From an uncultured virus (IMG/VR IMGVR_UViG_3300033463_000098) (lineage: Duplodnaviria > Heunggongvirae > Uroviricota > Caudoviricetes): DNA of 64,000 nucleotides. Positions 12,473 through 34,212 of this stretch are shown here, one piece after another (within the stretch, counting starts at the first letter, position 1; each line of letters begins with the position of its first letter). The position numbers and the translations under genes are program-made. The stretch lies in IMG/VR virus record IMGVR_UViG_3300033463_000098. One strand, 5' to 3'. A model generated the notes under the pieces. It was not told where the DNA came from and searched no databases. It saw only the letters and a program-made list of their open reading frames with translations.

Positions 12473-12482
12473 AGTTCCTCCA

Positions 12483-13361: not shown

Positions 13362-13371
13362 ACTATTCTCC

Positions 13372-18444: not shown

Positions 18445-18564
18445 TTCAAATTGTTGACTTTTTGTAAATTAAATGGCCCGGGTATTATAATTTACATAGT
18501 TTTAACTTGACATGTTATAAATTATGATATATAATAAATGTATAAAAAGAAAGGAAATAAAAAT

Positions 18565-19248
18565 ATGGCATTGAAAATTTTGAGTAACAACAACATTACC
18601 TGTAATACTCATGATAGTGGTATTTATTTCTTTGGAGAACGCGGTCTTACCCCTGACGGCGAAGTATTTTGCTCCGTAAAGATTGGATGGGGTAGCGATT
18701 TATCAAAACGTATTTCTCAATATAAAACTTATAGTTGCCAATTATTCCATCAGCAACACCATGTTTTAACTAAAAAACTACCTGTTCCGCATGGATATGA
18801 TATGGAAACTTTTGCACATGCTATGCTTGTGCTGCTTGCTATTGGTTTGCCTTCATATAGCCGTGAATGGTTTTATGTAAGTGAGCCAGTATATTTTGAA
18901 TTGTGTAAAGACCCGTGGCAGATTTTTGATGTTAATAGAATGGAAGAACTAATTAAATTAGCGGAAAAAACTAAAAAGAACAATCGTTATTATATCAATA
19001 AAACTGAATATGATAAAATTTATCAACATGATAAGATGATGACAGAGCAAGTTATTGCTCGTGAAGATATTATTAAACGACAAGCAGAAGAAATTGAAGC
19101 ATTAAATAAAACAAAACAATCTTATTTTGAACTTATTCAGGCTTATGAAGAAGATAATAAATTTAAACAATATTATTATGAATATAGTATTAGATTTCAT
19201 CTTGCTCCATGGTGGAAAAAAATATTGATGGCATTGAATATTATTTAA
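18565..19248 (+). CDS. T5orf172/MUG113-like (GIY-YIG) domain protein with C-terminal coiled coil
   Basis: GIYFF...VKIGW...RISQYKT...E...H...REWF. Confidence 0.65.
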   Translation: MALKILSNNNITCNTHDSGIYFFGERGLTPDGEVFCSVKIGWGSDLSKRISQYKTYSCQLFHQQHHVLTKKLPVPHGYDMETFAHAMLVLLAIGLPSYSREWFYVSEPVYFELCKDPWQIFDVNRMEELIKLAEKTKKNNRYYINKTEYDKIYQHDKMMTEQVIAREDIIKRQAEEIEALNKTKQSYFELIQAYEEDNKFKQYYYEYSIRFHLAPWWKKILMALNII

Positions 19249-19334
19249 GAGGGTTACTCCCTCTTTTTTTTAATTACATGTAAATTAAACTACCCGGGCA
19301 CTCTATTTAACATTCCCTTAATAAAAAGAGGACT

Positions 19335-20051
19335 TTACGTCCTCTTTACATCCATCCAACAGTTGCGGCGGATGCCCTTGCCGTAGGGCATTGCTTTATG
19401 GCTGTCAAAGCATCGCCGCATGATATACGCTTCAATGAGAACATCTTCAAGTCCTTTGTGTTCTTCTTCAAATTGCGGCGAAAGTGTCAAGTAGCGGTAA
19501 ACATTTTCCGCGCTGGTGCTGATATTGCGCGCCTTTTTGTTTGTGCCATGACCGTTGCCGGAAAAAAGCTGATTTTCTTCACAGAAGCGGCGATATGTAA
19601 TGCGCTGGCAAATGGTTTGACAAGCCATATTCCAGATACAAACAAAGTTCGTATTGCGCGGGAAAAAGTATCTGTGTTTAGACTTTGTTAACCATCTTTG
19701 CGTGGTGTTGAGGGCGTTGCGGTCAAAGTGAGCGTTATAGGCAGCTACATCGTGAATATTATATTTCTCCATGAGGTCGAGAACATAGCGGCGGGCGGTG
19801 TAGAAGTCAACCATCTTGCGGTCGCCCGCATGAATAGCATCGACATATTCGGAAATCTTATTGGCATAGTAGGCAGTCCGCATGAGTTCGCGCTCATAAA
19901 CGAAAATGTCGCGGATAACGAAAGAAAAACTTTCGTAGATGTTACCCTGTTTGTCCGCAACCACACCGCCCAGATCGTAAACTAGCGGCTGTTCCAGTCC
20001 GTTTGTGGTTTCGGTGTCCAGAATCAGATAATACTTGATGCGCTTGTCCAT
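19335..20051 (-). CDS. DnaQ/DEDDh-like 3'-5' exonuclease
   Basis: LDTETT, AYNAHFDR, EEHKGLEDV. Confidence 0.85.
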   Translation of the reverse strand: MDKRIKYYLILDTETTNGLEQPLVYDLGGVVADKQGNIYESFSFVIRDIFVYERELMRTAYYANKISEYVDAIHAGDRKMVDFYTARRYVLDLMEKYNIHDVAAYNAHFDRNALNTTQRWLTKSKHRYFFPRNTNFVCIWNMACQTICQRITYRRFCEENQLFSGNGHGTNKKARNISTSAENVYRYLTLSPQFEEEHKGLEDVLIEAYIMRRCFDSHKAMPYGKGIRRNCWMDVKRT

Positions 20052-20217
20052 GAAGTGTATCTCCTTTCTTTGATGATATAAGTATATCATAGGCAGGAAA
20101 AGAAGTCAAGTTAAGTATTGGTTAATTTAATAACCCGGACAATATAGTTAATGAAGATTTAACTTGACCTTTCGCGCTTGCGGGTGTATAATGTAATTGA
20201 AAGTGAGGGGATGACTT

Positions 20218-20730
20218 GTGAAGTCCAATTACATTGTGAGAGCAAAGAAGTTTATGCGCGATTTCCTGCCTTATCTTGAGGCGTATGAATTTGTGGGCAG
20301 AGCCGTCCTTGCTTATAATGAAGCAAAGCACCGTCATGTTGAACATTATCATGGTTTAGTTAGGCAGTGCGTATGCTTGTCTGATTATGCTATCAAATGG
20401 GATTATAATGAATATTATGCTGATATTTATGGCGGGTGCAAGGAAGAAGTTATTAACTATAACTTCGCTCGCGAGCATGGCTATGAGTATCTTTTCGCGG
20501 AAATTACGCCGATTGAAATTTGTGGGCGTGTGTTTTATGTAATGCCGCGCGTGAAAAAGTTAGCAATTACGTTTGATGAATATGAACCCGATAACCGGCT
20601 GTCATATGATGAATATGAGTTTGTTTTTGGGGTTATGGGATTGCATGATATGCATGATGAAAACTGGGGCTTGGTTAATGGAAAAGTGAAAATCATTGAC
20701 TATGCGAATTATAAGAGAGAGGATGAATAA
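20218..20730 (+). CDS. protein-kinase-like (PKL-fold) protein
   Basis: GLVR...YAIKWD, CKEEV, HDMHDENWG, KIIDYA. Confidence 0.75.
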   Translation: MKSNYIVRAKKFMRDFLPYLEAYEFVGRAVLAYNEAKHRHVEHYHGLVRQCVCLSDYAIKWDYNEYYADIYGGCKEEVINYNFAREHGYEYLFAEITPIEICGRVFYVMPRVKKLAITFDEYEPDNRLSYDEYEFVFGVMGLHDMHDENWGLVNGKVKIIDYANYKREDE

Positions 20731-20962
20731 TCCTTTCTTTTTTATCTTTATGTTAATTATATAGTCCGGGTCATATAATTAACCGTCTTTTAACTTGACT
20801 TTTCTTAGATTTTCTGTTATACTATAATTGTTCCAAGGGCAGGGAGGTAAGGACGAAGAGCCAAGAATTAACAAAGTCTTAACTTGACTTTCCGCTGAAT
20901 CTCTGCTATAATAATCACAGAAAGGGCAAGGAAAAGCCCAAAAAACCAGAAAGGGAAACAAT

Positions 20963-21283
20963 ATGTCTATGAACGCCGCTGAGATCAAGTCCACCGCTCG
21001 CCAGATGACCATCGCTGCTATCATGCCCGCCTTGATGGAGAACGACGCTGTGAAGTTCGCGGATGCGTCCTTTGCCATCCTGCAGACCGTTGACGGTCAG
21101 GAAGTTTGGACGGAAGTTACCGTCAAGTCCAAGGCGTACAAGCCCACCAAGGTGTCGCCCGCGTTCGACCCCTTTGAGGCCGCGGAGGCGTGGGAGGCCG
21201 AGAAGAAAATCAAGGCCGATGCCAAGGCTGCCAAGGAAGCTGAGAAGGCCGCAAAGCTTGCGGCGAAAGAGGAGAAGGCGTAA
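20963..21283 (+). CDS. hypothetical protein with Ala/Lys-rich C-terminal tail
   Basis: promoter, conserved leader, GC-rich codons; paralog of 26211 and 26734. Confidence 0.8.
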   Translation: MSMNAAEIKSTARQMTIAAIMPALMENDAVKFADASFAILQTVDGQEVWTEVTVKSKAYKPTKVSPAFDPFEAAEAWEAEKKIKADAKAAKEAEKAAKLAAKEEKA

Positions 21284-21361
21284 GCCTTCTTCTTTTTTTT
21301 TATGGTATTGTTAATTAAATAGCCCGGGTATTAAAGTTAATATAAAATTAAAGAAGCGTGA

Positions 21362-21670
21362 TTAACACGCTTCTTTTGTTGCGGTTACGACAATACCAAT
21401 TTCATTGGTATTAATATAGCAATCGCCATATTCAGTTTTGATAGCAACGTCATATCCCATTGCTTGAAGTTTTTCAATGCTAATACGGATATTCTTAACG
21501 AGATCGGTTACACGCTGGCGTGCTTCTATTTCGCGCCGTTTCTTAACAATCTCCATGAGATCGTTAACAAACGGCTCAAGCTGGTCTGTTTTCATTGCGA
21601 GAACATCTTCCGCGAGCATGGCGAGAGCGGTTTCATTATATTCAGAAGAATGGTGCGAAACATCTTTCAC
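21362..21670 (-). CDS. hypothetical protein
   Basis: second gene of a two-gene cassette. Confidence 0.65.
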   Translation of the reverse strand: MKDVSHHSSEYNETALAMLAEDVLAMKTDQLEPFVNDLMEIVKKRREIEARQRVTDLVKNIRISIEKLQAMGYDVAIKTEYGDCYINTNEIGIVVTATKEAC

Positions 21671-21825
21671 GAATTTTTTGCTCCTTTCAAATTTTCCATC
21701 ATTAGGAGAATCTTTTCATACTCTTCCGCATAGCGGTAACGGTCAAACATTGCGAGACGTAAGCGGCGAATTTTAGGAGAACAAGGTTGCCGCGCAATCC
21801 ATTTACGAATTTTATCAAAGTCCAT
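21667..21825 (-). CDS. small hypothetical protein
   Basis: start MDFDKIRKW after AAAGGAG. Confidence 0.6.
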   Translation of the reverse strand: MDFDKIRKWIARQPCSPKIRRLRLAMFDRYRYAEEYEKILLMMENLKGAKNS

Positions 21826-21997
21826 TAGTTTATTGCTCCTTTCATTTTCTATATATATAATAGCAGAAATTAAATTAAAAGTCAAGTTAATAGTTTGTTA
21901 ATTTGAATAACCGGGCACCTTATTTTACATAATCTTAACTTGACTTCATATGTGATTTATTGTATAATGATATTAGAAAGCGAAAGGAGATTAGCCT

Positions 21998-22516
21998 ATG
22001 AAGTCTGATTATCGTGTTCGTGCGGAGAAGTTCCTGCGGTCTGTGTTCCCCTATATTCAGAACGTGCTGTCTGATGAGGACGCCGTTGCCGACGCAATCG
22101 CGGACTATAACCGCCATCACTCCCGCAAGGTGGAAGTCAACTATGGCTCCGCGCGGATTGCCCTCATTACCTCTGACTATGTGGTAAAGTGGGACTATGA
22201 TGAGGACAATGTTGCGGACATTGGCGGCTGTGAGAAAGAATGGGAAGTGTATTGCCGCGCGTGTGATGCTGGTATGTCCCATCTTTTCGCGGAAAGCACG
22301 TTGATTGACTATTGCGGCGTTACCTTTGAGATTATGCCGCGAATCAGGGCAATTGGTCCCACTCATCATAAGTATGATTTTCTTTATATGATTTCGGCGG
22401 CAGAGGAAATTTGGCTGCGTGAAAATGGCATATTGTACGACCTTCACCACTGGAATTGGGGTATTATGCGCAATAAGCCTGTGATTGTGGACTATGCCTA
22501 CATTGAAACGGAATAA
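21998..22516 (+). CDS. protein-kinase-like (PKL-fold) protein
   Basis: GSAR...YVVKWD, CEKEW, YDLHHWNWG, VIVDYA; paralog of 20218. Confidence 0.78.
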   Translation: MKSDYRVRAEKFLRSVFPYIQNVLSDEDAVADAIADYNRHHSRKVEVNYGSARIALITSDYVVKWDYDEDNVADIGGCEKEWEVYCRACDAGMSHLFAESTLIDYCGVTFEIMPRIRAIGPTHHKYDFLYMISAAEEIWLRENGILYDLHHWNWGIMRNKPVIVDYAYIETE

Positions 22517-22623
22517 CCGCATAAGCGGTTATTTTTTTATAGGAATGTTAATTTTATAGCCCGGACTATATATTTAACATATGGTTAATAAAAGAAAATC
22601 CCGCCTTGCGGCGGGATTTTAGA

Positions 22624-23010
22624 TTAGGCAAGCCGGTAGGTATTCGCCTTGCCCTTGGCCTCGGTCTTGATCAGTTCGGGCGCCATCTCCCGCAGGAGAA
22701 CCGCCTGAACCTTGCCGACAGTGAAATCGGCGGGCAGTTCGCCCTTGGCGACCTCAAAGAGATCCTTGGCGGTGATGTCCGCGGTGAGATAGTTCCGCAG
22801 AACAGGGGCGACCTTGGCGATCAGTTCCGCCCGCGCCTTGGCGTTCTGCTCCTTGCGCTTGGCGTTCTGCTTCGCCTTGGAAGCGTCAGAGCGGGACTTG
22901 CCAAGCTGGGCGACCATCTTGGAAATGACCTCGCGGACTTCGGTCTCGGTCTCGGGGATGAAGGTCAGAGCGGTGGACAGAGCGGCGGACTTGGTGATGA
23001 TGTTCTTCAT
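22624..23010 (-). CDS. putative winged-helix DNA-binding protein
   Basis: ITAKDLFE...FTVGKVQAVL...KANTYRL pattern; paralog of 24466. Confidence 0.6.
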   Translation of the reverse strand: MKNIITKSAALSTALTFIPETETEVREVISKMVAQLGKSRSDASKAKQNAKRKEQNAKARAELIAKVAPVLRNYLTADITAKDLFEVAKGELPADFTVGKVQAVLLREMAPELIKTEAKGKANTYRLA

Positions 23011-23275
23011 AATGATACCCTTTCTGGTTTGTGAGGTTTTCCTTCCTCTGTTGTGTATTCATTATAGCACTTTCGCGCTAGAATGTCAAGTTAACTGTTT
23101 GTTAAGAGTTTCGGGGTTGGCTTTGGGATTTGTTTTCCTTCCCTCTCAACAAATATAGTATAGCAGAATTTGAAATGAAAGTCAATACTTTTCTATGTAA
23201 AGATTAAGTAAAATACATAGTCCGGACTACATAATTAACATTGATTTAATAAAAGAATTAAGGCCCTGATGGGCC

Positions 23276-24292
23276 TTAATATCTGAAATCGCTTCCCATA
23301 TATTCCGCGAGGCGGTTAATCCTATTCATAAGCCCACGGCAATAATTGGAAACATCGCCGCCAGTTTCTTCTATTTTCGCGTCAATGTATGCCGTGATAG
23401 CATCAAAAACCGCGTAACATTCTACCATGTTAGGAACCTGCCGACGCATACAAAATTCATCGGTGCCGCCCAAGTCACGGAAGGGGAAGAACTTAATGCC
23501 GGGGGTCACGGCATGTTTTGTCGCAATCTTTGAAAGGATGAAAGTTTCGATTTCTGCGTCATTCAATGCGGTGTGAGACTCAATAAAGTCATACTTATTA
23601 ATCAAATACTGATAAGAAGATTCAGCGGAAGTTTTGAAGAATGTGCCGGAGTTGGTGAACATGCCGTGATTGATACATTCATTTTTATAGGTTGCGTTAT
23701 TAAGAAGGTGAGTAGTTGCCAAACCCCAAAGGTCAAACAACATATACTCATTGCCATGAAAACGGAAAATATCGGCTTCAAAATCAGGGTCGCCCTTATC
23801 TTTTCCCTTATTATCTGCGATAAAGGCCGCGCTCCTGCGCTGGAGATTTTCCCAAGCGAAGTAGTCAGGGCTATAAAGCTCACGGATATAAAGATCGGTG
23901 AAGGGAATGGCCTTTTTGAAATCGAACATGGCATTGAACGCGCCCACAGCGTCAACCTTCCCCAAGTCCTCAATAAAAATTTTCATAACATCATTCCAAG
24001 GTAAGACAGAAGTTTCGCTACGGGAAAGCATTTCAAGATAGATAGGACGCTTTTCGGCATAATATGCCGTGTTAAAGATGGCGGGAACAGAAAAGGTTTC
24101 GGCAATCAGAAATTGCTTTTTGTCATAGATATGGCCCTTTCGGTCGGTGATAGTCCACCCAATGTCATAAACAAGGGGCTTCGCAATCGCAATACGCTTT
24201 TTGCGCTCGGGGTCGCCCTGCGCGATTTCATTTGCGAAAGGGAGGGTCGCGGTTTCCGTATCAACTACCATGAAATACAATTTCTTCGCCAT
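23276..24292 (-). CDS. DnaQ/DEDDh-like 3'-5' exonuclease
   Basis: VDTETA, AFNAMFDF, ESHTALNDA; paralog of 19335. Confidence 0.85.
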   Translation of the reverse strand: MAKKLYFMVVDTETATLPFANEIAQGDPERKKRIAIAKPLVYDIGWTITDRKGHIYDKKQFLIAETFSVPAIFNTAYYAEKRPIYLEMLSRSETSVLPWNDVMKIFIEDLGKVDAVGAFNAMFDFKKAIPFTDLYIRELYSPDYFAWENLQRRSAAFIADNKGKDKGDPDFEADIFRFHGNEYMLFDLWGLATTHLLNNATYKNECINHGMFTNSGTFFKTSAESSYQYLINKYDFIESHTALNDAEIETFILSKIATKHAVTPGIKFFPFRDLGGTDEFCMRRQVPNMVECYAVFDAITAYIDAKIEETGGDVSNYCRGLMNRINRLAEYMGSDFRY

Positions 24293-24465
24293 TTTTAAAT
24301 CCTTTCTGGTTTACGGTGTTTTCCTTCACCTGATGGATATATTATAACACGGGGGAAGGGTTATGTCAATAGATTTTTATGTTAAGTCTGAGTGAATTAG
24401 ATGGGCCGGGAAATAAAATTAACATAGGGTTAAAAGAAGAACCGCCCTCGCGGGCGGTTCTTTTG

Positions 24466-24798: not shown

Positions 24799-24894
24799 AG
24801 TGTTATGTCCTTTCTGGTTTGTTGGGTTTTCCTTCCCTTTGATGTATTTATTATAGCACCGATTGGCTATAATGTCAAGTTAAGAGTTTGTTAA

Positions 24895-25035: not shown

Positions 25036-25087
25036 ATATTTAGTATATCACGATTTCCGCTCTTTGTCAAGTTAAGATTTCGTGAAG

Positions 25088-25162
25088 TGGTGAGGGTGGC
25101 GGGAATCGAACCCGCGATACATGGATTAAAAGTCCATTGCCATACCACTTGGCTACACCCTC
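25088..25162 (-). tRNA. tRNA-Lys(UUU) with encoded CCA
   Basis: acceptor GAGGGTG/CACCCTC-A-CCA, anticodon arm ATGGA-CTTTTAA-TCCAT, T arm GCGGG-TTCGATT-CCCGC. Confidence 0.93.
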
Positions 25163-25304
25163 ATGTTTTGGGTTTTGGTTTCCCTCGCCCTCAACTGAAT
25201 ATAGTATAGCAGAAATTGAATGAAATGTCAATAGTTTAGAAGGTAAAGATTGTGTAAAGTATAGTGCCCGGACTATATATTTTACATAGAGTTAAAAGAG
25301 AACA

Positions 25305-25662: not shown

Positions 25663-25820
25663 TTCTAAACCCCCTTTGATTTTAGGATTATGGTTTATCT
25701 CTTGGTTCTGAAACTATTATATCAAAAACAAAATGAAATGTCAAGTTAAAGGATTATTAACTTTATAACCCGGCTAGAATAATTAACATGATTTTAAAAT
25801 GAAATTAGAGGAATGGTTAA

Positions 25821-26090: not shown

Positions 26091-26210
26091 AATTAAAATC
26101 TCCTTTCTTTTTCTATAAATAATATAGCATATTAAAAGAAAATTGTCAAGTTAATTATTAGTTAATTATATAATCCGGGCAATATAATTAACATAGAAAT
26201 AAAAAGGGGA

Positions 26211-26582: not shown

Positions 26583-26733
26583 AGTGTTTGCCCTTTCTGG
26601 TTTGGAGTGTTTTCCTTCACTTGTTGATATAAGTATAGCAGAAATTTAGGTAAATGTCAATACTTTTTTGTGTTAATTATCGGTAAAATAGAGTGGCCGG
26701 GCTATTAAATTAACATTGAATTAAAGAAGGGGA

Positions 26734-27132: not shown

Positions 27133-27207
27133 GGATGTTATCCTTTCTGGTTTTTTAGTGTTTTCCTTCACTTTCTGGATATAGTATAGCAGATTTGGGG
27201 AGAAAAG

Positions 27208-27360
27208 TCAAGTTAAGATTTCTTTAATTTCTTTCTTAATAAATTTAATCTTACATTCTTTACAGTAATAAATCTTAGGATATTTGGGCTGTTTGTTTCT
27301 TTCTACCCATAACGCACCTTGATGACATTTGGGGCAAAGACTCCAATATCGGTTAATCAT
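27208..27360 (-). CDS. small Zn-ribbon protein
   Basis: MINRYWSLCPKC...YCKEC; AAAGGAG RBS; stop lies within the next -35 box. Confidence 0.6.
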   Translation of the reverse strand: MINRYWSLCPKCHQGALWVERNKQPKYPKIYYCKECKIKFIKKEIKEILT

Positions 27361-27481
27361 TTGACTTTCTCCTTTCACTTTCTATAAATAGTATAGCACA
27401 ATTTTTATAAAAAGTCAAGTAAATTATTTGTTAAATTTATAGTCCGGCAAATTTAGTTAACATGAAATTAAAAAAAGTCGG

Positions 27482-27928: not shown

Positions 27929-28065
27929 ATTGTGTTTGCTCCTTTCCTGTTCTGATATAAGTATATCAAAAATGGGGTAAAAAGTCAAGTTAAGATTATG
28001 TTAAATAGGCGGCCCGGGCATTATAGTTAACATTGATATAAAAAAAGTATAGGTGATACCTATAC

Positions 28066-28443
28066 TTAATTTTGTATGAAATAAAGTTTATGTATGTGGC
28101 GGTAAGTATGTTCAATAATTTCAACTTCGGATTGCCATTGGTCTGGATGCCAATTGATTTCTATGTTTTCACAATGCGCGGCATAATAATTTTTAACAAA
28201 GTCTACGGCTTTATTATAATTATTTGCGCGGTTGACAAGTTCTTGTTGTTCGGTGATAAGGCGTGTTTTTGCTTTGTCTTTCAATTCACCATCGGGGTAA
28301 AGTTCGACACAGCAGCGAGCAGTTTCTACGATGCTAACTTGGGCTTGTAGCCGTTTTGACATTACTAGCGCGGTGTCCCATTGCCGCTTATATTCCAACG
28401 TCCAGTTATTGTAATTCTTCACAGCTTTCTTCTTTCCAAACAT
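28066..28443 (-). CDS. hypothetical protein
   Basis: promoter, RBS and terminator within one cassette. Confidence 0.7.
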   Translation of the reverse strand: MFGKKKAVKNYNNWTLEYKRQWDTALVMSKRLQAQVSIVETARCCVELYPDGELKDKAKTRLITEQQELVNRANNYNKAVDFVKNYYAAHCENIEINWHPDQWQSEVEIIEHTYRHIHKLYFIQN

Positions 28444-28760
28444 ATTTTTATGCTCCTTTCAGCTTGTGCCTTAATTATAACAGCTTTCCAGCCTGCTGTC
28501 AAGTTAAGATTCTGTTAAGTCTAGCTTGTGACTGGCAACGCAAACAACCGGAACGCATCCGGCAATTAACACAAATTTAATCTGTGCTTTACTCAAAGTT
28601 AACACTTCCTTAACTTAAACATAACAATCACCTCTGTTACCTATATTCCACCATAGGGTATTGTACCACATTCGCGGCGAGTTGTCAAGTTAATTGTGTG
28701 TTAATTAGAGTGCCCGTGCAATTTGTTTAACATAGGATTTACATAAAAAAAATTGGCTCC

Positions 28761-28970
28761 TTAGCGGCGCCAATTTTTGTCATTTTCGGTGATTTCGCCG
28801 GTGTCGGGCGTGAACTGGTAGAATTTGCCATTATCGCAGTGGATGTTAATTTGGAAGAAATTGTTAACTTCCATTTTTTCAATCGCGGGAATGTTGAAAG
28901 TCCAACCAAAGAAAGCATCAAACGCGGCGAGAGCGCCTTCAAAATCGCGGAAAGACATTGCCTTATTCAT
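28761..28970 (-). CDS. hypothetical protein
   Basis: MNKAMSFRDF after GAGGAG. Confidence 0.7.
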   Translation of the reverse strand: MNKAMSFRDFEGALAAFDAFFGWTFNIPAIEKMEVNNFFQINIHCDNGKFYQFTPDTGEITENDKNWRR

Positions 28971-29112
28971 TGTTTGTTCTCCTCTCAATTCGTCGTTTTT
29001 TATTTTATTATATCATATATTTTTGATTTGTCAAGAGGTTTTTAATGTAAAATATTGGTTAACTATAATGCCCGGGCTATATAGTTTACATATGCTTAAT
29101 ATAAGAAAAGGG

Positions 29113-29421
29113 TTAGCACCATGCTAACCCCATTGTGCGCCAGTTGAGAATTGAAAGTTGGTTACATTCGCGGCCGATTTTCATTGCTTCACGCTTTGTG
29201 TTAACGCGTTTGGATTTATCAATGTAATAAATCCCGTCGCTGTACCAAATGCCGCAATTGCCTTTGTATGCTTTTACGGCGTTAATTGCTTCGCGTGCGT
29301 CTTTGGTTTCGATGCCTTCGGTTGCTACTTGCCATCCGGTTTTATAGGTGATGATTTTCCCGCGCTTCAAAGTCAGGCCGTCATTGTTAGAGAGCTTGCG
29401 AATGGTACGAATGTTAATCAT
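29113..29421 (-). CDS. hypothetical phage protein
   Basis: MINIRTIRK after GAGAGG. Confidence 0.7.
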   Translation of the reverse strand: MINIRTIRKLSNNDGLTLKRGKIITYKTGWQVATEGIETKDAREAINAVKAYKGNCGIWYSDGIYYIDKSKRVNTKREAMKIGRECNQLSILNWRTMGLAWC

Positions 29422-29546
29422 GGTGGAAACCTCTCTTTCGTTTGTTTCTGATATGATTATACACCTTGGGCATACGATTGTCAAGTTAAAAGTGTGTAAA
29501 CTATATAGCCCGGATAATATAATTAACATTGAGTTTACGAAAAGTA

Positions 29547-29783
29547 TCACCCATGTGGGTGATACTCATATCGTGCGCACATAGACGCGTAACGATAAGC
29601 GACACGGTAAAGATCGCTGTCGTTAAGCGGCTGGATGTAAGTTGGGTAGGGTTCGCCGCTTTCATAGATAGCGGCATGGCGTGCGCCGTCAATAACGACA
29701 AATTTAACACGCACATAGCAAGTCTTGCCCTGAAGAGAAAAGCCATCAACATCACGAAACATCAACATAACAACAACCTCCAA
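29547..29783 (-). CDS. hypothetical protein (start uncertain)
   Basis: fills a cassette between promoter and hairpin. Confidence 0.5.
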   Translation of the reverse strand: MEVVVMLMFRDVDGFSLQGKTCYVRVKFVVIDGARHAAIYESGEPYPTYIQPLNDSDLYRVAYRYASMCARYEYHPHG

Positions 29784-29904
29784 TATCTTGATTACAGTAA
29801 CAGTATAACATAAAAAGTAAAATAAAGCAAGTTAATTGTACGTAAAATATATAGCCCGGGCAATATAATTAACATAGCAATAATAAAAAAAGAATTGAGT
29901 TACC

Positions 29905-30048
29905 TCAATTCTTTACAACGATTTTGAGAAACCAAAGATATTGTGGCTGTTCATAAGACAGATAATCAACCGCAATGCGCGCTTTAAGTTTATCATAGAA
30001 AACGATGGTCTTTGTTTCTGCGGTATTGGTTACGATGTACTTTGTCAT
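29905..30048 (-). CDS. small hypothetical protein
   Basis: MTKYIVTN after GGGAGG. Confidence 0.6.
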   Translation of the reverse strand: MTKYIVTNTAETKTIVFYDKLKARIAVDYLSYEQPQYLWFLKIVVKN

Positions 30049-30187
30049 GATTTTATCCTCCCTTGATTTATTGACTATATTATACCACAACAAGAAAAGA
30101 AAAGCAATGATTCTAAATGTAAAATTTGGGGAAATTAAAAAGCCCGGGGTATATAATTAACATTTGTATAATAAAAAATTTGAGGGA

Positions 30188-30373
30188 TTAATCCCTCAAA
30201 TCTTTTTCTGAAATGATGGTCATGCTGCCGAAAAGGTAGATAGTCGGATCATAAATCTTGTTGCGGTTGTTCCACAGGAAATTGCGGGCGGCGCGAGTAG
30301 TGTAGAAGAATTCGTCCTTGAGATCAAAAGAGTTCATGTCGATGTAGTAGATGACATAAAGCGGAAGATTCAT
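30188..30373 (-). CDS. small hypothetical protein (paralog of 31193)
   Basis: shared FYTTRAARNFLWNNRNKI. Confidence 0.75.
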   Translation of the reverse strand: MNLPLYVIYYIDMNSFDLKDEFFYTTRAARNFLWNNRNKIYDPTIYLFGSMTIISEKDLRD

Positions 30374-30489
30374 AGTGACAACCTCTTTTCTTGATTTCTT
30401 GAGTATAGTATACCATATACATACGGAAAAGTCAAATTAAATAATGGTAAACTATAATGCCCGGGATATGTATTTAACATAGATATAAT

Positions 30490-30662: not shown

Positions 30663-30758
30663 AGTCTATTATAGCAAAAAATCCAATAGAAGTCAAGTTA
30701 AAAGCAAGTAAAATAGAATGAACGTACAATGTAATTAACATAAATAAAAAAATTGGGA

Positions 30759-31046
30759 TTACTCCCAATTTTCAATATATCCACTATAACGAATATTGAT
30801 GATAATATCATCATAAATTATTTCTGTTCCGTTATCTTCCATAATCGCGGCGATAATATCGCCCTTTTCATAATCTTCAATGTCGCTCCACAACCATTCA
30901 TTCCCATTAAAATCAATAAGAATGAGCATGTTTTGCGCGCGATCAATGTCATTTACAAAAAAGGTTTGCGGGTAAATTTCGGCGCGAGCGGTAGAAAAAG
31001 CAACGACCATAGCAAACAGAGCAATGATGGCGATAAACTTCTTCAT
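30759..31046 (-). CDS. secreted/exported small protein
   Basis: signal peptide MKKFIAIIALFAMVVAFSTARA|E. Confidence 0.75.
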   Translation of the reverse strand: MKKFIAIIALFAMVVAFSTARAEIYPQTFFVNDIDRAQNMLILIDFNGNEWLWSDIEDYEKGDIIAAIMEDNGTEIIYDDIIINIRYSGYIENWE

Positions 31047-31192
31047 AAATATTCTCCTTCTGGTTTTTAAGTGTTTCCTTCACTTGTTGTATATAGTATA
31101 ACACGAGATTATTATAGAGTCAAGTTAAATAATTGTAAAGGGCAATAAACGTACATTCTATTTAACATTGAAATAATAAAAGAAATGAAGGA

Positions 31193-31378
31193 TTAATCCT
31201 TCAAATCTTTTTCGGAAATTTCAGTCATGCTGCTGAAAAGATAGATAATTACATCATGAATTTTGTTACGATTATTCCAAAGAAAATTGCGGGCGGCGCG
31301 GGTAGTATAGAAATAACGGTAAATCGCGGCATTAGTGTTGTTGTCAATGTAATCAATAGAATACAGAGGGAGACTCAT
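31193..31378 (-). CDS. small hypothetical protein (paralog of 30188)
   Basis: MSLPLY...SEKDLKD. Confidence 0.75.
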   Translation of the reverse strand: MSLPLYSIDYIDNNTNAAIYRYFYTTRAARNFLWNNRNKIHDVIIYLFSSMTEISEKDLKD

Positions 31379-31439
31379 AGTAAATACCTCATTTTCGGGA
31401 TTGTTGGTTGCTTTCCTTTGGAACAATTATATTATAGCA

Positions 31440-31690
31440 AATGAAAATGAAATTGTCAATATGAAATTAGGAAATTTAATTTGAAATTAACATAAGTTTG
31501 GGGGTATTAAAAATGAAAATGAAATTGCATTTTAGGAATATAAAATGAAATTAAAATTGAAATTGAAATTATGGGAAATGAAAATGAAATTGCATAATGG
31601 GATATTTCATATTAAATAAAAATGAAATTTCAGGAAAATGTTTAAAAATGAAATTCTAAAAAATATTACAATAAAATAAAATGAAATTGC
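31440..31690 (+). repeat. AAATGAAATT(G) repeat tract
   Basis: more than 10 copies; the same word occurs at 15478-15500 and 15560-15577. Confidence 0.75.
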
Positions 31691-31869
31691 ACGTGTAAAC
31701 ATAAAGTAAAGAATAAAGTACGTGTATTTGAATTAACATAATTATAACAGATAATTTTATTTAGTATTATGTTTATTATTGCTATTATTTTTAGTACGTT
31801 ATATAAATTTATGTTTTTATATATTAATGTGTTTTTATATAGAGTTAATAAAATATTAAATAGTATAAT

Positions 31870-31907
<38 letters not shown>

Positions 31908-32032
31908 AATTATAATATTATTTATTTTGTTATTAATATTATTACAATTAATAATATTGCTGAGTATTTTTATTATTATTATTATTAATTATGTTTATTT
32001 AATTTATTTATTTTATAAATTAATAAATTATA

Positions 32033-32203
32033 TTAATGGAAAAAAGCTGGCAAAAGAATTAAGAATAAAAGTGCGATAATTAGAGTAATACTATCAAAAA
32101 TATAACCGCTAATCAACAATATAACTTTTTTAATATCGTTAAAAGTTAACCTATAAAACCACATTTTAATTTTATAAGAAAAGGAATTTCGAGAACGTTT
32201 CAT
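32033..32203 (-). CDS. small membrane protein
   Basis: MKRSRNSF...ITLIIALLFLILLPAFFH; AAGGAG RBS. Confidence 0.55.
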   Translation of the reverse strand: MKRSRNSFSYKIKMWFYRLTFNDIKKVILLISGYIFDSITLIIALLFLILLPAFFH

Positions 32204-32446
32204 GGCTTATATCTCCTTTTTGTTTCTATACATATATTATACTATAGTTTTATTATAAAAGCAAGTATAAAATTAAAGCTATATTATGACAAAATATTTA
32301 TAAGATTTAATTTTTAAGTCTAATTTATTTTAATTTTATGTTAATTGTATTCAACGCGCATTTCAATTTACTTTTTTTTAACTTGACATTTCATTTCCAT
32401 TTTGCTATAATATGTATAACACAGAAAAGAAAGGGGATTTTTTAAA

Positions 32447-32587
32447 ATGAAAGTTTACGTTATTGATTGCAATGGTTTTCAAGGTAGTGCTTACTATTCT
32501 CGTTTTGATGAAGCGCAAGCCGCGGCCATTTGGCGTACTAATTGCACAGGTATGGAATGGAAAGTGCGGGAGTTAATACTCCCGTAA
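32447..32587 (+). CDS. small hypothetical protein
   Basis: TTGACA-17-TATAAT, AAAGGGG RBS, MKVYVIDCNG... Confidence 0.65.
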   Translation: MKVYVIDCNGFQGSAYYSRFDEAQAAAIWRTNCTGMEWKVRELILP

Positions 32588-32710
32588 TTTCATTTTAAGT
32601 TTATGTTAACTGCACTGCACGTTGTTTATATTTTACAATTTTTTAACTTGACTTTTCATTCTCAATATGCTATAATCATTCTAGAAACAAACGAAAGGGG
32701 ATTTCCTAAA

Positions 32711-32860
32711 ATGACTAAGCATAATACCGTTCGCGTGTGGGAAGATTTGACCGATCAGGAACAGATTTATATGTGGTGGGGCTATAACGCGGCAAATCCC
32801 GATGATCCAGTTTCATTTCCAACTTTTGATGAAATGATGCAGGGATTCACTTTTGAGTGA
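32711..32860 (+). CDS. small hypothetical protein
   Basis: MTKHNTVRVW after promoter and AAAGGGG. Confidence 0.65.
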   Translation: MTKHNTVRVWEDLTDQEQIYMWWGYNAANPDDPVSFPTFDEMMQGFTFE

Positions 32861-32940
32861 ATCCCATAATTTATATTATCATAATGTTAATTATATAGCA
32901 CGTAAATTTTAATTAACATAATTTTAAAATAAATGGTATG

Positions 32941-33126
32941 TTAAACATACCATTTCATAATATGCATTGCTTCTTGAATCTCGCGGCACGACCACGTTTC
33001 AAACGTAATTATTAAATAACCATCTTCAAGTCGTTCCGTCATGTAATCAAGTCCGGCATCTGCCAACTGCTCATACATGTGCTCAAGAGAAGAATTGATC
33101 TCAATGATAAAAGACTTTACGAACAT
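32941..33126 (-). CDS. small hypothetical protein
   Basis: promoter and GAGG RBS. Confidence 0.65.
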   Translation of the reverse strand: MFVKSFIIEINSSLEHMYEQLADAGLDYMTERLEDGYLIITFETWSCREIQEAMHIMKWYV

Positions 33127-33307
33127 TTGGAATTTACCTCGCTTTCCTAACTTTCAAGAATATCCTATCATACAAATTCCAAAATGTCAAGTTAATTGAT
33201 TGTTAATTACAATGGACGTACTGTATATTTTACATACTTTTTACTTGACATTTCGTAAATGATATGATATACTATTTATAGAATTAAAGAAAGGAATGGT
33301 ATCCCGA

Positions 33308-33571
33308 ATGAAAAAGATTATTCTTGCGGTTGTCCTGTGTGCTCTTGCTTGCCTATGCCTCACTGGTTGTCAACTTGGGAACCGTCAGATCGGTTTTGAC
33401 ACCAAGCAACGATTTGATGAAGCCATTATCTTTACGCCAACATATGAAGTTGTTAGCGGTGACATCGAATCATGGCGCGATTTTTCCGAGTCGGATGTTG
33501 TACAAGTTACTATCGGCGGTGTCACTTATCTTACACATTACAGTAATGTCATCCTGATTAGGCATAATTAA
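33308..33571 (+). CDS. phage lipoprotein
   Basis: MKKIILAVVLCALACLCLTGC lipobox. Confidence 0.75.
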   Translation: MKKIILAVVLCALACLCLTGCQLGNRQIGFDTKQRFDEAIIFTPTYEVVSGDIESWRDFSESDVVQVTIGGVTYLTHYSNVILIRHN

Positions 33572-33656
33572 CGCGAGCAATCGCGTTTTTCTTTATGATA
33601 ATGTTAATTTTATTACACGTTCTATTGAATTAACATAAATATAATAAAGCGTAGAT

Positions 33657-33920
33657 TCAATATCTACGCTTTTTGTTTTTAAGATGTTTAGCGCTTTGCT
33701 GGTTAAAACGTTCATAAGCGCTGATTTTACGATATTCTCTATATTCTGTTTCGGTGATTTCCTTGCCATAGATTGCCATGCGTGTATGCTTAACGCTCGG
33801 CATCTTGCGCGCGATGTCGCACGCTTCAAGTAAGTTGTTTGCCGCGATTGCGAACTTGATCTCAGTGCTGTGGCCTACGCCGCAATGACCTCTGTGACAC
33901 ATGACCATGTAGAACTTCAT
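33657..33920 (-). CDS. hypothetical protein
   Basis: MKFYMVMCHRGHCGVG...MPSVKH. Confidence 0.7.
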   Translation of the reverse strand: MKFYMVMCHRGHCGVGHSTEIKFAIAANNLLEACDIARKMPSVKHTRMAIYGKEITETEYREYRKISAYERFNQQSAKHLKNKKRRY

Positions 33921-34212
33921 TGGAAAAACCCCTTTCGTTTGTTTCTATATATATTATATACAATTAGAGAACAGATGTCAAGTAAAGATACAATTAAGAT
34001 TATTGCACGCACTTTTTTCTTTAAGTAAAATTAACTTTAGTTTTTATTTTATTTCAATATTTTTAATTTATATTTAGCATTTTAATAACTTGATTATCCG
34101 TTTTATTATATTTTAATTTTTATTTATGTCTTTAAATTTTGCTCTCATTTTCAAGCTGCTCTCTTATTCCCATTCTCAACTCCAACTCCGTATTTTATTT
34201 TCGGCTCTAGGT

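What the first reader, a model, noticed from the sequence alone, without database searches (positions are those of the whole stretch)
18453..34035. Integron/shufflon-like gene-cassette array in a phage: ~30 autonomous cassettes joined by one 54-bp dyad site
SEEN: 30 copies of GTWAA-N6-GTWAA-N8-nnCGnn-N8-TTWAC-N6-TTWA, with exact spacing and inner consensus close to TGTTAATTATATAG-CCCGGG-CTATATAATTAACA (14-6-14). Between adjacent sites lies a unit of sigmaA promoter, RBS, one or two short genes (or a tRNA/ncRNA) and usually a terminator. The site occurs at tandem junctions, divergent promoter-promoter junctions (20120, 21896, 32339, 33201) and convergent terminator-terminator junctions (19279, 21309, 22546, 32885, 33602). 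I did not find it at the equally good promoters in 1-17 kb. KNOWN: a simple operator is not expected at terminator-terminator junctions. Dyad sites with a short central crossover are typical of site-specific recombinases (loxP-type 34-bp sites; 40-55-bp serine-integrase att sites), and a palindromic crossover permits joining in either orientation. T4-type PeSL promoter-stem-loop modules are the closest phage precedent I know, but they lack this architecture. INFERENCE: this is a recombinase-driven system that captures, excises, inverts and reorders early/host-takeover genes. No recombinase is recognisable in the window, so it may be encoded elsewhere or by the host.
Basis: partly seen in the sequence, partly recalled or inferred. 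Interest (0 to 1): 0.95.

Follow-up and report, generated by a model that had tools for sequence, protein, structure and literature searches.

The report
Dyad-punctuated early gene-cassette array in phage
A family of large cattle-gut phages keeps about thirty small, self-contained early genes in a row, each separated by the same 54-base mirror-symmetric DNA site, and genes are gained, lost and flipped at that site without any recognisable recombinase.

Summary
There are 30 copies of the 54-bp dyad at 18453-34035, against 0.1 expected, and none elsewhere in the window. Arrays of 28-41 copies sit at the same genome position in about 15 non-redundant related phage contigs, two of them complete (about 180 kb).

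Each half of the dyad is two phased hexamers (TGTWAA-N5-nGTWAA). It is locked to sigmaA-type -35 boxes at offsets of 0, 11 or 22 bp, and half-sites alone precede internal promoters. The arms do not covary, so it reads as a protein-recognition site and not as a hairpin.

Cassette content and order differ between relatives. Crossover points are enriched inside the dyad (16.1 of 22 against 9.0 expected) and about threefold at its centre. The two cleanest events map onto the invariant CG. Other events lie in the arms or flanks, so there is no single fixed crossover point.

No serine or tyrosine recombinase was found in two complete relatives. They do encode Sak4-like and RecJ-like recombination proteins and a conserved gyrase.

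My best reading is a regulatory boundary element that doubles as a recombination hotspot. This resembles T4 PeSL cassettes but uses a new kind of site. An integron- or shufflon-like recombinase system is not shown and not fully excluded. The binding protein is unknown.

The parts
18453..34035 (.). Whole array: 30 dyad sites bounding 29 cassettes. It lies between a helicase-like gene (16332-17582) and the late/structural module (36166 onward).
18453..18506 (.). Dyad 1, CCCGGG core; script class P/P (promoter to the right at 18507; the left call is doubtful).
19269..19322 (.). Dyad 2, CCCGGG core; terminators on both sides (T/T).
20110..20163 (.). Dyad 3; divergent promoters on both sides (20109 on the - strand, 20164 on the + strand).
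20741..20794 (.). Dyad 4; terminator to the left, promoter to the right (20795).
21299..21352 (.). Dyad 5; convergent junction, no promoter on either side.
21886..21939 (.). Dyad 6; divergent promoters (21885 on the - strand, 21940 on the + strand).
22536..22589 (.). Dyad 7; terminators on both sides.
23197..23250 (.). Dyad 8; - strand promoter 11 bp from the left edge (23185), terminator to the right.
24381..24434 (.). Dyad 9; - strand promoter offset by about 11 bp (24369), terminator to the right.
25243..25296 (.). Dyad 10; - strand promoter offset by about 11 bp (25231), terminator to the right.
25745..25798 (.). Dyad 11; - strand promoter abutting (25744).
26150..26203 (.). Dyad 12; - strand promoter abutting (26149).
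26672..26725 (.). Dyad 13; - strand promoter offset by about 11 bp (26660).
27419..27472 (.). Dyad 14; - strand promoter abutting (27418).
27989..28042 (.). Dyad 15; - strand promoter abutting (27988), terminator to the right.
28689..28742 (.). Dyad 16, hybrid core CCGT; - strand promoter abutting (28688).
29047..29100 (.). Dyad 17; - strand promoter offset (29034), terminator to the right.
29485..29538 (.). Dyad 18; - strand promoter abutting (29484).
29831..29884 (.). Dyad 19; terminator to the right; weaker -35 box (GCAA) to the left.
30119..30172 (.). Dyad 20; terminator to the right.
30436..30489 (.). Dyad 21, the last CCGG-type core; - strand promoter abutting (30435).
30697..30750 (.). 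Dyad 22, the first ACGT-type core; - strand promoter abutting (30696).
31124..31177 (.). Dyad 23, ACGT core; - strand promoter abutting (31123).
31695..31748 (.). Dyad 24; left end of a five-cassette segment that is inverted relative to most relatives.
32329..32382 (.). Dyad 25; + strand promoter abutting (32383).
32594..32647 (.). Dyad 26; terminator to the left, + strand promoter abutting (32648).
32875..32928 (.). Dyad 27; no promoter on either side.
33191..33244 (.). Dyad 28; divergent promoters (33190 on the - strand, 33245 on the + strand).
33592..33645 (.). Dyad 29; convergent junction; right end of the inverted five-cassette segment.
33982..34035 (.). Dyad 30, the most degenerate copy; - strand promoter abutting (33981).
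20868..20883 (+). Half-site only (TTAACA-N5-TTAAC), abutting the internal promoter at 20884.
23090..23105 (-). Half-site only, abutting the internal promoter at 23089.
24879..24894 (-). Half-site only, abutting the internal promoter at 24878.
25071..25086 (-). Degenerate half-site abutting the internal promoter at 25070, just downstream of tRNA-Lys.
27212..27227 (-). Degenerate half-site abutting the internal promoter at 27211.
28503..28518 (-). Half-site only, abutting the internal promoter at 28502.
25088..25162 (-). tRNA-Lys (UUU) carried as part of one cassette.

Best explanation
The 54-bp dyad is a protein-recognition boundary element of a hyperplastic early-gene region in a clade of roughly 180-kb phages of cattle-gut Firmicutes.

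Each half is a pair of phased hexamers (TGTWAA-N5-nGTWAA). This has the format of sites bound by tandem winged-helix regulators. It sits directly upstream of strong sigmaA-type promoters in a fixed helical register. Two halves placed back to back around an invariant CG make one symmetric module, and that module separates every self-contained unit of promoter, gene and terminator.

The same module recurs 30-40 times, so it is also the place where cassettes are exchanged, deleted, inserted and inverted. Most of this exchange is homology-guided, as with T4 PeSL cassettes, and probably uses the phage's own Sak4-like and RecJ-like recombination functions. There is an added, still unexplained preference for joining at the dyad centre. 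Exchange among copies also homogenises the sites within a genome (concerted evolution).

Shown: the anatomy, the phasing, the lack of hairpin covariation, conservation of the array across the clade, breakpoints within the site, and the absence of a classical recombinase.

Inferred: that a protein binds the site, that the array is expressed early, and which enzymes carry out the exchange.
For: Anatomy and conservation:
- 30 sites against 0.1 expected, found only in the array.
- Arrays of 28-41 sites sit at the same locus in relatives.
- The dyad is absent from the nearest cultured relatives, Phass-1 and Enterococcus phage EF1. In the scan of bacterial genomes it appeared only on phage-like MAG contigs, plus one chance hit inside a coding sequence.

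Protein site and not hairpin:
- There is no within-site arm covariation in the window: 7.37 against 7.49 of 16 variable columns, with 1368 of 2000 permutations at least as high.
- Pairwise site identity is only 0.65, and the longest shared exact run averages 8.9 nt.

Link to promoters:
- Of 465 promoter-bearing site sides, the -35 box lies at offset 0 in 373, at 10-12 in 69 and at 21-24 in 15.
- Six internal promoters carry only TTAACA-N5-TTAAC|TTGACA.
- Twelve equally good promoters outside the array lack the element.
- 43 of 60 half-sites are within one mismatch of TGTWAH-N5-TGTWAH. The whole window holds 81 such matches against 25.6 expected. The consensus comes from a passage in PMC4168254.

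Exchange at the site:
- Cassette order is largely collinear, with many insertions, deletions and replacements and one five-cassette inversion bounded by dyads.
- In 17 comparisons of 11 junctions, placing the join at a site edge cost up to 11-12 extra mismatches, against 0-3 for a central join.
- With anchors 40-100 nt away from the site, 16.1 of 22 crossovers fall in the site, against 9.0 under a uniform model and 11.4-14.5 under homology-weighted models.
- Clear crossovers occur in 11-bp identical arm runs.

Machinery:
- No PF00239 domain in 5 of 5 records and no PF00589 domain in 3 of 3.
- The complete relative encodes AAA_24 (Sak4-like), RecJ-like, ligase, GyrA/GyrB, GIY-YIG and HNH nucleases.

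Concerted evolution:
- Core type is genome-specific: all ACGT in some genomes, all CCGG in others, with hybrids in mixed genomes.
Against: - About a fifth of sites (115 of 537) have no promoter that I can detect on either side. Terminator-side halves are as conserved as promoter-side halves, at 27.3 against 27.2 bits. A pure promoter element does not predict this. It requires either a second function, such as insulation or cooperative binding, or maintenance by gene conversion.
- The centre holds about three times more crossovers than any homology-weighted model gives: 6.6 observed against 2.2-2.5 for positions 21-33, and 4.1 against 1.3-1.5 for positions 24-30.
- The two cleanest events used 3-bp and 6-bp central identities although 9-bp and 11-bp runs were available. 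Passive homology alone does not explain this.
- No binding protein has been identified. Pfam found no OmpR-type domain in the relative. Only a MarR-like protein, an HTH_36 protein and a GIY-YIG-HTH protein were seen.
- The promoters are already consensus, so there is no obvious need for an activator.
- The event counts are small (22, partly dependent), and there are no expression, binding or read-level data.
Confidence: 0.5

Rival explanations
1. Dedicated site-specific recombination. An unrecognised phage enzyme or a host recombinase synapses two dyads and exchanges strands at the invariant, self-complementary central CG. This captures, excises and inverts cassettes. Arm and flank crossovers would be a separate background of homologous events.
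For: - The central CG is invariant in 30 of 30 sites and near 100% in relatives.
- The cleanest recent cassette insertion/deletion (flanks 100% identical) joins within CCG at positions 25-27. A second event joins within GCACGT at positions 23-28, although an 11-bp identical run was available.
- There is a central excess of about threefold over the homology-weighted expectation.
- Hybrid cores CCGT (31) and ACGG (27) exist among 520 sites.
- The site is present at every junction type, and an inversion is bounded by dyads.
Against: - No serine- or tyrosine-recombinase domain was found in complete relatives.
- Only about 19% of crossover mass lies at positions 24-30, and 27% lies outside the site.
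- Several well-resolved joins lie in the inner or outer arms.
- One exchange between an ACGT-type and a CCGG-type site carried the whole core from one partner.
- A recombination site has no need for the strict helical phasing to promoters or for stand-alone half-sites at promoters.
Confidence: 0.17
2. The dyad is a preferred binding and cleavage site for the phage-encoded type II topoisomerase (GyrA/GyrB). Placed between densely packed, strongly transcribed units, it would relieve or insulate supercoiling. Occasional topoisomerase-mediated illegitimate joining at the 4-bp staggered cut (MCGK) would produce the centre-focused exchanges.
For: - The complete relatives encode GyrB and GyrA, including the C-terminal beta-propeller repeats, at 91-92% amino-acid identity against a proteome median of 62.5%.
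- The site is symmetric, with a 4-bp palindromic core, and is present at all junction types, including convergent ones.
- There is a central crossover excess.
- That type IIA enzymes cut with a 4-bp stagger, and that gyrase can mediate illegitimate recombination, is recalled knowledge. It was not checked in a paper here.
Against: - Known strong gyrase sites, as I recall them, show weak sequence consensus, unlike the sharply conserved GTTAA boxes.
- This reading does not explain half-sites at promoters or the phase lock.
- No test was possible with these tools.
- Whether the window's own genome has the gyrase genes was not seen, because they lie outside the 64 kb.
Confidence: 0.08
3. The dyad is purely a transcription operator or upstream element. 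For example, a host WalR/PhoP-type response regulator or a phage shut-off repressor binds it. It would have no special role in recombination, and breakpoints fall there only because it is the sole conserved sequence between unrelated cassettes.
For: - The phase lock to -35 boxes and the stand-alone half-sites.
- Resemblance to the WalR-type box.
- A precedent in a distantly related phage lineage: SPBRE repeats in SPbeta are bound by the repressor MrpR (PMC10516654, passages read).
- Stoperators of Cluster A mycobacteriophages are a further precedent (PMC9283540, abstract seen in the listing).
Against: - Sites occur without any promoter and are equally conserved there.
- The central crossover excess is not explained by homology.
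- The full dyad was not found in bacterial chromosomes, so it is not an ordinary host operator.
- No lysogeny module or integrase was found.
Confidence: 0.15
4. A sequence-specific nuclease breaks the dyad centre. This could be a phage homing-type GIY-YIG or HNH enzyme, or hairpin cleavage of the palindrome. Repair by homologous recombination with other copies or with co-infecting phages then gives crossovers that peak at the centre and decay outward.
For: - The crossover density is highest at the centre, lower in the arms and lowest in the flanks.
- The relative encodes two GIY-YIG proteins (one with a resolvase-type HTH) and two HNH proteins.
- The first cassette of the window carries a T5orf172 domain.
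- Concerted evolution of the sites fits frequent gene conversion.
Against: - A phage cutting its own genome at 30-40 places would be costly.
- The T5orf172 cassette is present in only 3 of the compared genomes.
- The GIY-YIG-HTH gene is poorly conserved between the two complete relatives: the best G003 match is 40% identical and not syntenic.
- There is no direct evidence of cleavage.
Confidence: 0.07

Closest known systems
PeSL (promoter-early stem-loop) mobile regulatory cassettes in hyperplastic regions of T4-type phages (Arbiol et al. 2010, PMC2839356; Comeau et al. 2014, PMC4122927; abstracts and outlines read)
   Same: - Small, mostly unknown-function early genes, each with its own strong sigma70-type promoter and terminator, clustered in a plastic region.
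- Insertions, deletions and replacements between close relatives occur by recombination within the repeated regulatory motif.
- No dedicated recombinase.
   Different: - In PeSLs the repeated element is the promoter plus the terminator stem-loop itself.
- Here the terminators are unique to each cassette. The shared element is a separate 54-bp four-box dyad with an invariant central CG, placed between terminator and promoter and present even at terminator-terminator junctions.
- The host group (Firmicutes) and phage lineage differ.
- Joins show a central excess.
- Mini-circles could not be tested.
SPBRE repeats bound by MrpR (YopR) in Bacillus phage SPbeta (PMC10516654; passages read)
   Same: - A conserved element repeated in intergenic promoter regions of a large Firmicutes phage whose portal is distantly related.
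- The SPBRE binder has a catalytically dead tyrosine-recombinase fold. This shows that a recombinase-like site can in fact be an operator.
   Different: - SPBRE is a 15-bp motif at about ten promoters of a temperate phage.
- Here the element is a 54-bp dyad with 30-40 copies, some at junctions without promoters.
- No integrase or lysogeny genes were found, and no homologue of the binder was tested.
Stoperators of Cluster A mycobacteriophages (PMC9283540; abstract seen in the search listing)
   Same: Dozens of copies of one repressor site are spread through intergenic regions, and they act beyond promoters by blocking elongation.
   Different: - Stoperators are short, asymmetric and oriented with transcription, as I recall. 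They occur genome-wide and are bound by the immunity repressor.
- Here the site is symmetric and confined to one array, and no repressor is known.
Integrons (IntI/attC) and the R64 shufflon (Rci/sfx)
   Same: Arrays of gene cassettes are separated by imperfect inverted-repeat sites, and cassette order or orientation varies.
   Different: - No integrase or Rci was found.
- The arms do not covary, unlike folded attC sites.
- The cassettes carry their own promoters and terminators and face both ways.
- Joins are not confined to one point.
dif (pdif) modules of Acinetobacter plasmids mobilised by host XerC/XerD (PMC13141974, PMC6449649; abstracts seen in the search listing)
   Same: Discrete accessory modules are bounded by short dyad sites and shuffled. 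The recombinase is not encoded by the element itself.
   Different: - dif sites are 28 bp, with arms that abut a 6-bp spacer, and they alternate in orientation (recalled).
- Here the conserved boxes lie 8 bp from the core and the site is symmetric.
- No test against a Firmicutes dif sequence was run.
WalR/VicR (OmpR-family) response-regulator boxes, TGTWAH-N5-TGTWAH (PMC4168254; passages read)
   Same: Each dyad half has two hexamers of that sequence class at the same 11-bp period, directly upstream of -35 boxes.
   Different: - Only 2 of 60 halves match exactly, and the outer hexamer usually has one mismatch.
- The conserved spacer, the CG core and the back-to-back arrangement have no WalR counterpart.
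- Binding was not tested.

Membership tests
Integron | Adjacent intI tyrosine recombinase | tested here: not met
   PF00589 was found in 0 of 3 related records, two of them complete. Pfam gave no such hit on window ORFs or on 194 of 246 ORFs of G002.
Integron | attC sites conserved in folded structure, with arms that pair and covary | tested here: not met
   Within-site arm complementarity equals between-site complementarity in the window: 7.37 against 7.49, with 1368 of 2000 permutations at least as high. Across 520 sites in relatives there is a small excess (8.24 against 7.37), which the two core subfamilies could explain.
Integron | Promoterless cassettes in a single orientation, expressed from a common promoter | tested here: not met
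   Each unit has its own near-consensus promoter and terminator, and units face both ways.
Shufflon / invertase systems | Dedicated recombinase (Rci or a serine invertase) encoded nearby | tested here: not met
   PF00239 was found in 0 of 5 records and PF00589 in 0 of 3.
Serine- or tyrosine-recombinase crossover site in general | All recombinant joins at one fixed central position | tested here: inconclusive
   The two cleanest events join at the centre, and there is a threefold central excess. However, about 81% of crossover mass lies outside positions 24-30, and several joins clearly lie in the arms.
PeSL-type mobile regulatory cassettes | Clustered in a hyperplastic region of small non-core genes, with content differing between close relatives | tested here: met
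   519 cassettes fall into 148 similarity families. There are many insertions, deletions and replacements and one inversion, while the flanking regions stay collinear. The genes are mostly of unknown family.
PeSL-type mobile regulatory cassettes | The repeated motif is itself the early promoter plus the terminator stem-loop | tested here: not met
   A promoter and a terminator flank the junction, but the conserved repeat is a distinct dyad between them. The terminator hairpins differ from cassette to cassette.
PeSL-type mobile regulatory cassettes | Breakpoints of insertions, deletions and replacements lie in the repeated motif | tested here: met
   11 of 11 informative events switch inside the site. 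16.1 of 22 crossovers fall in the site, against 9.0 expected under a uniform model.
PeSL-type mobile regulatory cassettes | Excised cassette mini-circles | not testable with these tools
Repeated phage operator (SPBRE/MrpR, stoperator) | A phage repressor binds the repeat | not testable with these tools
   No binding data are available. The only candidates are the MarR-like, HTH_36 and GIY-YIG-HTH proteins of G002.
Repeated phage operator (SPBRE/MrpR, stoperator) | Repeat located at promoters or in intergenic regions | tested here: met
   422 of 537 sites have at least one adjacent promoter in a fixed phase.
WalR/PhoP-type response-regulator box | Two TGTWAH hexamers separated by 5 bp | tested here: inconclusive
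   2 of 60 halves match exactly and 41 have one mismatch. The inner hexamer is perfect in 42 of 60 halves and the outer in 8 of 60. The window holds 81 matches against 25.6 expected.
dif/pdif Xer modules | 28-bp site with 11-bp arms abutting a 6-bp spacer, recognisable as dif-like | not tested
   No dif sequence from a tool was compared. By anatomy, the conserved boxes lie 8 bp from the core.

The most novel reading that the evidence does not exclude
The dyad array is a dedicated cassette-exchange platform of a new kind. A dyad-specific factor would mark every cassette boundary and direct a break or strand exchange to the invariant central CG. That factor could be an unrecognised phage protein, the conserved phage type II topoisomerase, or a host enzyme. 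Phages of this clade could then swap, invert and capture self-expressing early genes at defined points. This would be functionally analogous to an integron but built without an integrase, and the same site would also coordinate early transcription.
Probability: 0.2. Interest if true: 0.9.

Novelty: new variant of a known kind. Interest (0 to 1): 0.66.

Why it matters
Early "host-takeover" and anti-defence genes are the fastest-changing part of phage genomes, and how they are exchanged is known in detail only for T4-type PeSLs. This clade of large, uncultured cattle-gut phages shows the same logic with a different and much more structured site. The site has four phased boxes and an invariant centre, it evolves in concert within each genome, and crossovers concentrate on it.

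This gives a concrete and testable handle on several questions. What protein marks cassette boundaries? Does recombination there happen passively or is it targeted? Do transcription control and gene shuffling share one DNA element? The cassettes themselves form a ready-made catalogue of autonomous early genes, about 150 similarity families across the relatives, for anti-defence or takeover screens.

Tried and rejected
- Hairpin, cruciform or RNA-structure reading: rejected, because the arms do not covary and the site lies after terminators and upstream of promoters.
- The dyad as a promoter in its own right (TGTTAA-N17-TATAAT): rejected. The -10-like A2 base is present in only 17 of 30 sites and the -35-like hexamer is poor.
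- Near-identity DNA search of the phage collection: no match.
- Earlier notes of this scan: nothing by place or by sequence.
- Half-site linkage test on all reciprocal-best cassette pairs: no proximal/distal asymmetry (0.523 against 0.513). I judged this uninformative because of paralogues and concerted evolution, and replaced it with the close-pair analyses.
- My first conclusion, that crossovers are "not at the centre", was revised.
- The window's five-cassette inversion could be resolved only to cassette level. The flanks are too diverged to place the breakpoints at nucleotide level.
- Sequencing runs: 20 runs were listed, all kept as contigs, and no RNA holder was listed. There is therefore no read-level test of inversions, deletions or circles.
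- Atlas look-up of the abundant 106-aa cassette protein returned only unnamed viral clusters scoring below 0.9.
- The Rfam hits at 34385-34506 (mir-5014, on both strands, far below the gathering score) reflect a palindromic repeat, not an RNA family.
- The Cytobacillus match of the genome scan lies inside a coding-like stretch without the AT-rich arms, and I took it as chance.
- MAG labels for array-bearing contigs are inconsistent (Acutalibacteraceae, Eubacteriales, Gastranaerophilales, Acetobacter, Eggerthellaceae), so they were not used as host evidence.
- No search was made for DDE, HUH or other non-classical recombinases beyond the Pfam scan of G002. The 52 G002 ORFs not scanned were array ORFs, structural ORFs and 5 ORFs that cross locus boundaries.

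Full report
**The observation**

All lie at the stated coordinates between 18453 and 34035 and none lies elsewhere in the 64 kb. Shuffled sequence gave a mean of 0.10 matches. An alignment with flanks shows exact spacing, a central CG in 30 of 30 sites, and two blocks of core type. The core is CCGG-like from 18453 to 30488 and ACGT-like from 30697 to 34035. All 8 CCCGGG hexamers of the window are dyad centres.

The units between sites carry near-consensus TTGACA-17-(TGn)TATAAT promoters, ribosome-binding sites, one or two small ORFs and G+C-rich hairpins followed by T runs. The tool scan of the array found 99 promoter-like sites against 51.7 expected and 43 terminator-like sites against 15.7 expected. 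One tRNA-Lys rides in a cassette. Twelve equally good promoters outside the array lack the site.

**Context**

The window is part of a large phage. PHROGs and Pfam name the following:
- a portal protein and virion proteins;
- a protein in a PHROG labelled "sigma factor";
- an RNA-repair set (RNA ligase, Thg1-like, kinase/HD);
- nucleotide-metabolism genes;
- an ORF of more than 4500 codons that runs off the end of the window.

The portal's nearest cultured relatives, at 24-30% amino-acid identity, are Enterococcus EF1/VRE9-type phages, Phass-1, SPbeta-like phages and Lactococcus phages. Public runs that hold the stretch are labelled bovine gut metagenomes. The cassette genes are almost all of unknown family. 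They include two paralogue pairs and several small proteins with Lys/Ala/Glu-rich tails, and their G+C ranges from 0.30 to 0.61.

**Distribution**

An exact-pattern scan of viral contigs returned 109 stretches on 23 contigs. Eighteen contig regions hold 14 or more sites, and three of these duplicate others, leaving 15 non-redundant genomes with arrays of up to 41 sites.

In all of them the array lies between the same helicase-like gene and the same late module. In two records rated complete (184 kb with terminal repeats, and 181 kb) the sites occur only in that array.

The dyad is absent from Phass-1 and from Enterococcus phage EF1, where matches equalled the control. In 185,579 species-representative bacterial and archaeal genomes it appears only on phage-like MAG contigs, plus one apparent chance match. 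A metagenome scan found 232 or more further stretches.

**What the site is**

The arms of a site do not covary. Within-site complementarity at the 16 variable columns is 7.37, against 7.49 between sites, and 1368 of 2000 permutations were at least as high. Sites share on average only 65% identity and exact runs of 8.9 nt. This is the signature of a protein-recognition pattern, not of a selected hairpin.

Each half is two hexamers at an 11-bp period (nGTWAA-N5-TGTWAA). 43 of 60 halves lie within one mismatch of the published WalR/VicR box TGTWAH-N5-TGTWAH. I treat this as a lead on the class of binder, not as membership.

The outer hexamer abuts the -35 box as TTAAC|TTGACA. Over 537 sites in 18 contig regions, 465 site sides carry a promoter. 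The -35 box lies at offset 0 in 373 of them, at 10-12 in 69 and at 21-24 in 15, which is whole helical turns. Six internal promoters in the window carry only the proximal half (TTAACA-N5-TTAAC|TTGACA), without the core or the distal half. The half-site is therefore a promoter-linked element, and the dyad is two of them back to back around the CG.

Two further facts complicate this. First, 115 of 537 sites have no detectable promoter on either side. Second, halves that face terminators are as conserved as halves that face promoters, at 27.3 against 27.2 bits.

**Concerted evolution**

Core type is specific to each genome. Some genomes are all ACGT, others all CCGG, and mixed genomes are rich in the hybrids CCGT and ACGG. 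Identity at variable positions is 0.569 within genomes against 0.493 between them. Orthologous junctions therefore change together. This means either frequent gene conversion among copies or co-evolution with a binder. Conversion could also maintain the halves that serve no promoter.

**Exchange at the site**

Cassette order is largely collinear between relatives, but there are many insertions, deletions and replacements. The window carries a five-cassette inversion, from dyad 31695 to dyad 33592, relative to most relatives. Its ends could be fixed only to cassette resolution.

- In 11 informative insertion/deletion events between closer relatives, the switch of homology always fell inside the 54 bp.
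- Re-scoring 17 comparisons of 11 junctions, a join at the centre costs 0-3 extra mismatches. A join at a site edge costs up to 11-12.
- The cleanest case has flanks 100% identical and involves a 371-bp cassette. Its join is pinned to CCG at positions 25-27.
- With 952 unique junctions pooled from all fetched loci, and with anchors placed 40-100 nt away so that crossovers could fall anywhere in 135 positions, 22 events gave 16.1 crossovers in the site (9.0 expected if uniform), 6.6 at positions 21-33 (2.1 expected) and 4.1 at positions 24-30 (1.1 expected). A further 5.9 fell in the flanks.
- Weighting by the length of identical runs between the two partner sites explains the enrichment in the site and the arms (11.4-14.5 expected in the site). 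It does not explain the centre, where 2.2-2.5 are expected.
- Individual alignments show both kinds of event. Two joins use 3-bp and 6-bp central identities although 9-bp and 11-bp runs were available. Others lie in 11-bp arm runs or in the outer box.
- In a broader set of 99 junctions with unrelated neighbours, retained orthology declines gradually across the junction: 0.69, 0.53, 0.37, 0.33, 0.19, 0.09. There is no step at the centre.

Exchange is therefore real and focused on the site. It is partly homology-driven, with a modest central excess. That excess rests on few, partly dependent events.

**Enzymes**

No serine-recombinase domain was found in 5 of 5 related records. No tyrosine-recombinase domain was found in 3 of 3, including both complete genomes. 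Pfam on 194 of the 246 ORFs of 60 or more codons in the 184-kb relative found no recombinase. It did find the following:
- an AAA_24 (Sak4-like) protein, a RecJ-like exonuclease and a DNA ligase;
- DnaB and Pol III alpha;
- two GIY-YIG proteins (one with a resolvase-type HTH) and two HNH proteins;
- a MarR-like protein and an HTH_36 protein;
- GyrB and GyrA.

GyrA/GyrB (91-92% identity) and the MarR-like protein (88.6%) are far more conserved between the two complete genomes than the proteome median of 62.5%.

**Reading**

I commit to the composite explanation at 0.5. The dyad is a protein-bound boundary and regulatory element of an early-gene regulon. Its repetition makes it the exchange point for modular shuffling, using the phage's own homologous-recombination functions. 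This works like T4 PeSL cassettes (PMC2839356, PMC4122927; abstracts read) but with a different and more elaborate site.

The central excess, the invariant self-complementary CG and the promoter-less copies keep three other readings alive:
- a dedicated site-specific mechanism (0.17);
- a centre-directed break (0.07);
- a phage-gyrase site (0.08).

A pure operator with only incidental recombination gets 0.15. The SPbeta precedent is relevant here: repeated SPBRE elements turned out to be operators of MrpR, a catalytically dead recombinase-fold repressor (PMC10516654, passages read). It shows how a site that looks like a recombinase target can be regulatory.

Integron and shufflon membership fails on the recombinase, on arm covariation and on cassette design.

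**Limits**

- No binding, expression or read-level data are available.
- The host is unknown.
- Promoter and terminator calls are consensus matches only.
- The crossover statistics rest on 22 events.
- The window's own genome beyond the 64 kb was not seen. The nearest record held is a 49-kb fragment that is collinear with the window across the array.

Noticed in passing
window 18036-18290 and 34214-34346: Runs of CCAGCTT/TTCCAGC-type short repeats lie just outside both ends of the array, on the same strand. They may be coding repeats or boundary or origin-like elements.
   Followed up: partly
window 18356-18445: Four to five copies of a 16-bp-period repeat (GTAGCATGGTAAAGT-like) with an embedded palindrome lie between a - strand promoter (18345) and the first dyad. 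An extremely A+T-rich stretch lies at 17835-17975.
   Followed up: partly
window 34387-34566: Three 40-bp repeats rich in palindromes (ATACGTGTAT...TGTATACAATGATACATGT) are followed by three 17-bp repeats (TGCAACTTTGAGTTGCT). They give weak Rfam mir-5014 hits on both strands, well below threshold. This could be an origin or another operator cluster.
   Followed up: partly
window 50500-63999: A single open reading frame of more than 4500 codons runs off the end of the window, downstream of the virion genes. It was not analysed.
   Followed up: no
window 28588-28626 (- strand): Four GTTAA-type hexamers at 11-bp spacing lie inside a cassette, upstream of the internal promoter at 28502. This extended run of the half-site boxes resembles iterons.
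   Followed up: no
window 20963-21283, 22624-23010, 24466-24798, 26211-26582, 26734-27171: These are small early proteins of high G+C (0.51-0.61, against about 0.33 for the phage). Several have Lys/Ala/Glu-rich C-terminal tails. They belong to cassette families present in up to three copies per genome, and one is driven by tandem promoters. Their function is unknown.
   Followed up: partly
window 5435-15295: An RNA-repair or tRNA-repair gene set lies on the - strand: T4-type RNA ligase, Thg1-like guanylyltransferase, an AAA_33 kinase with an HD domain, and a nucleotidyltransferase. It may counter host tRNA-cleaving defences.
   Followed up: no
G002 (L117:718-5152) and G003: The complete relatives encode GyrB and GyrA at 91-92% amino-acid identity, among the most conserved proteins of the clade. 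They also encode an anaerobic ribonucleotide reductase, a ClpP-like protease, PhoH and a xanthine/uracil permease. A Dam-type methyltransferase is present in G002 but has no match in G003.
   Followed up: partly
window 19335-20090 and 23276-24292; 20218-20730 and 21998-22516: There are two paralogue pairs inside the array. One pair matches phrog_20187, which shows weak similarity to a DNA polymerase exonuclease subunit. The other pair matches phrog_4301. Cassettes therefore duplicate as well as move.
   Followed up: no
relatives, all arrays: Dyad core type (ACGT or CCGG) is nearly uniform within a genome but differs between genomes that share orthologous cassettes. The window is a two-block mixture, which suggests it is a recombinant of two lineages.
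   Followed up: partly
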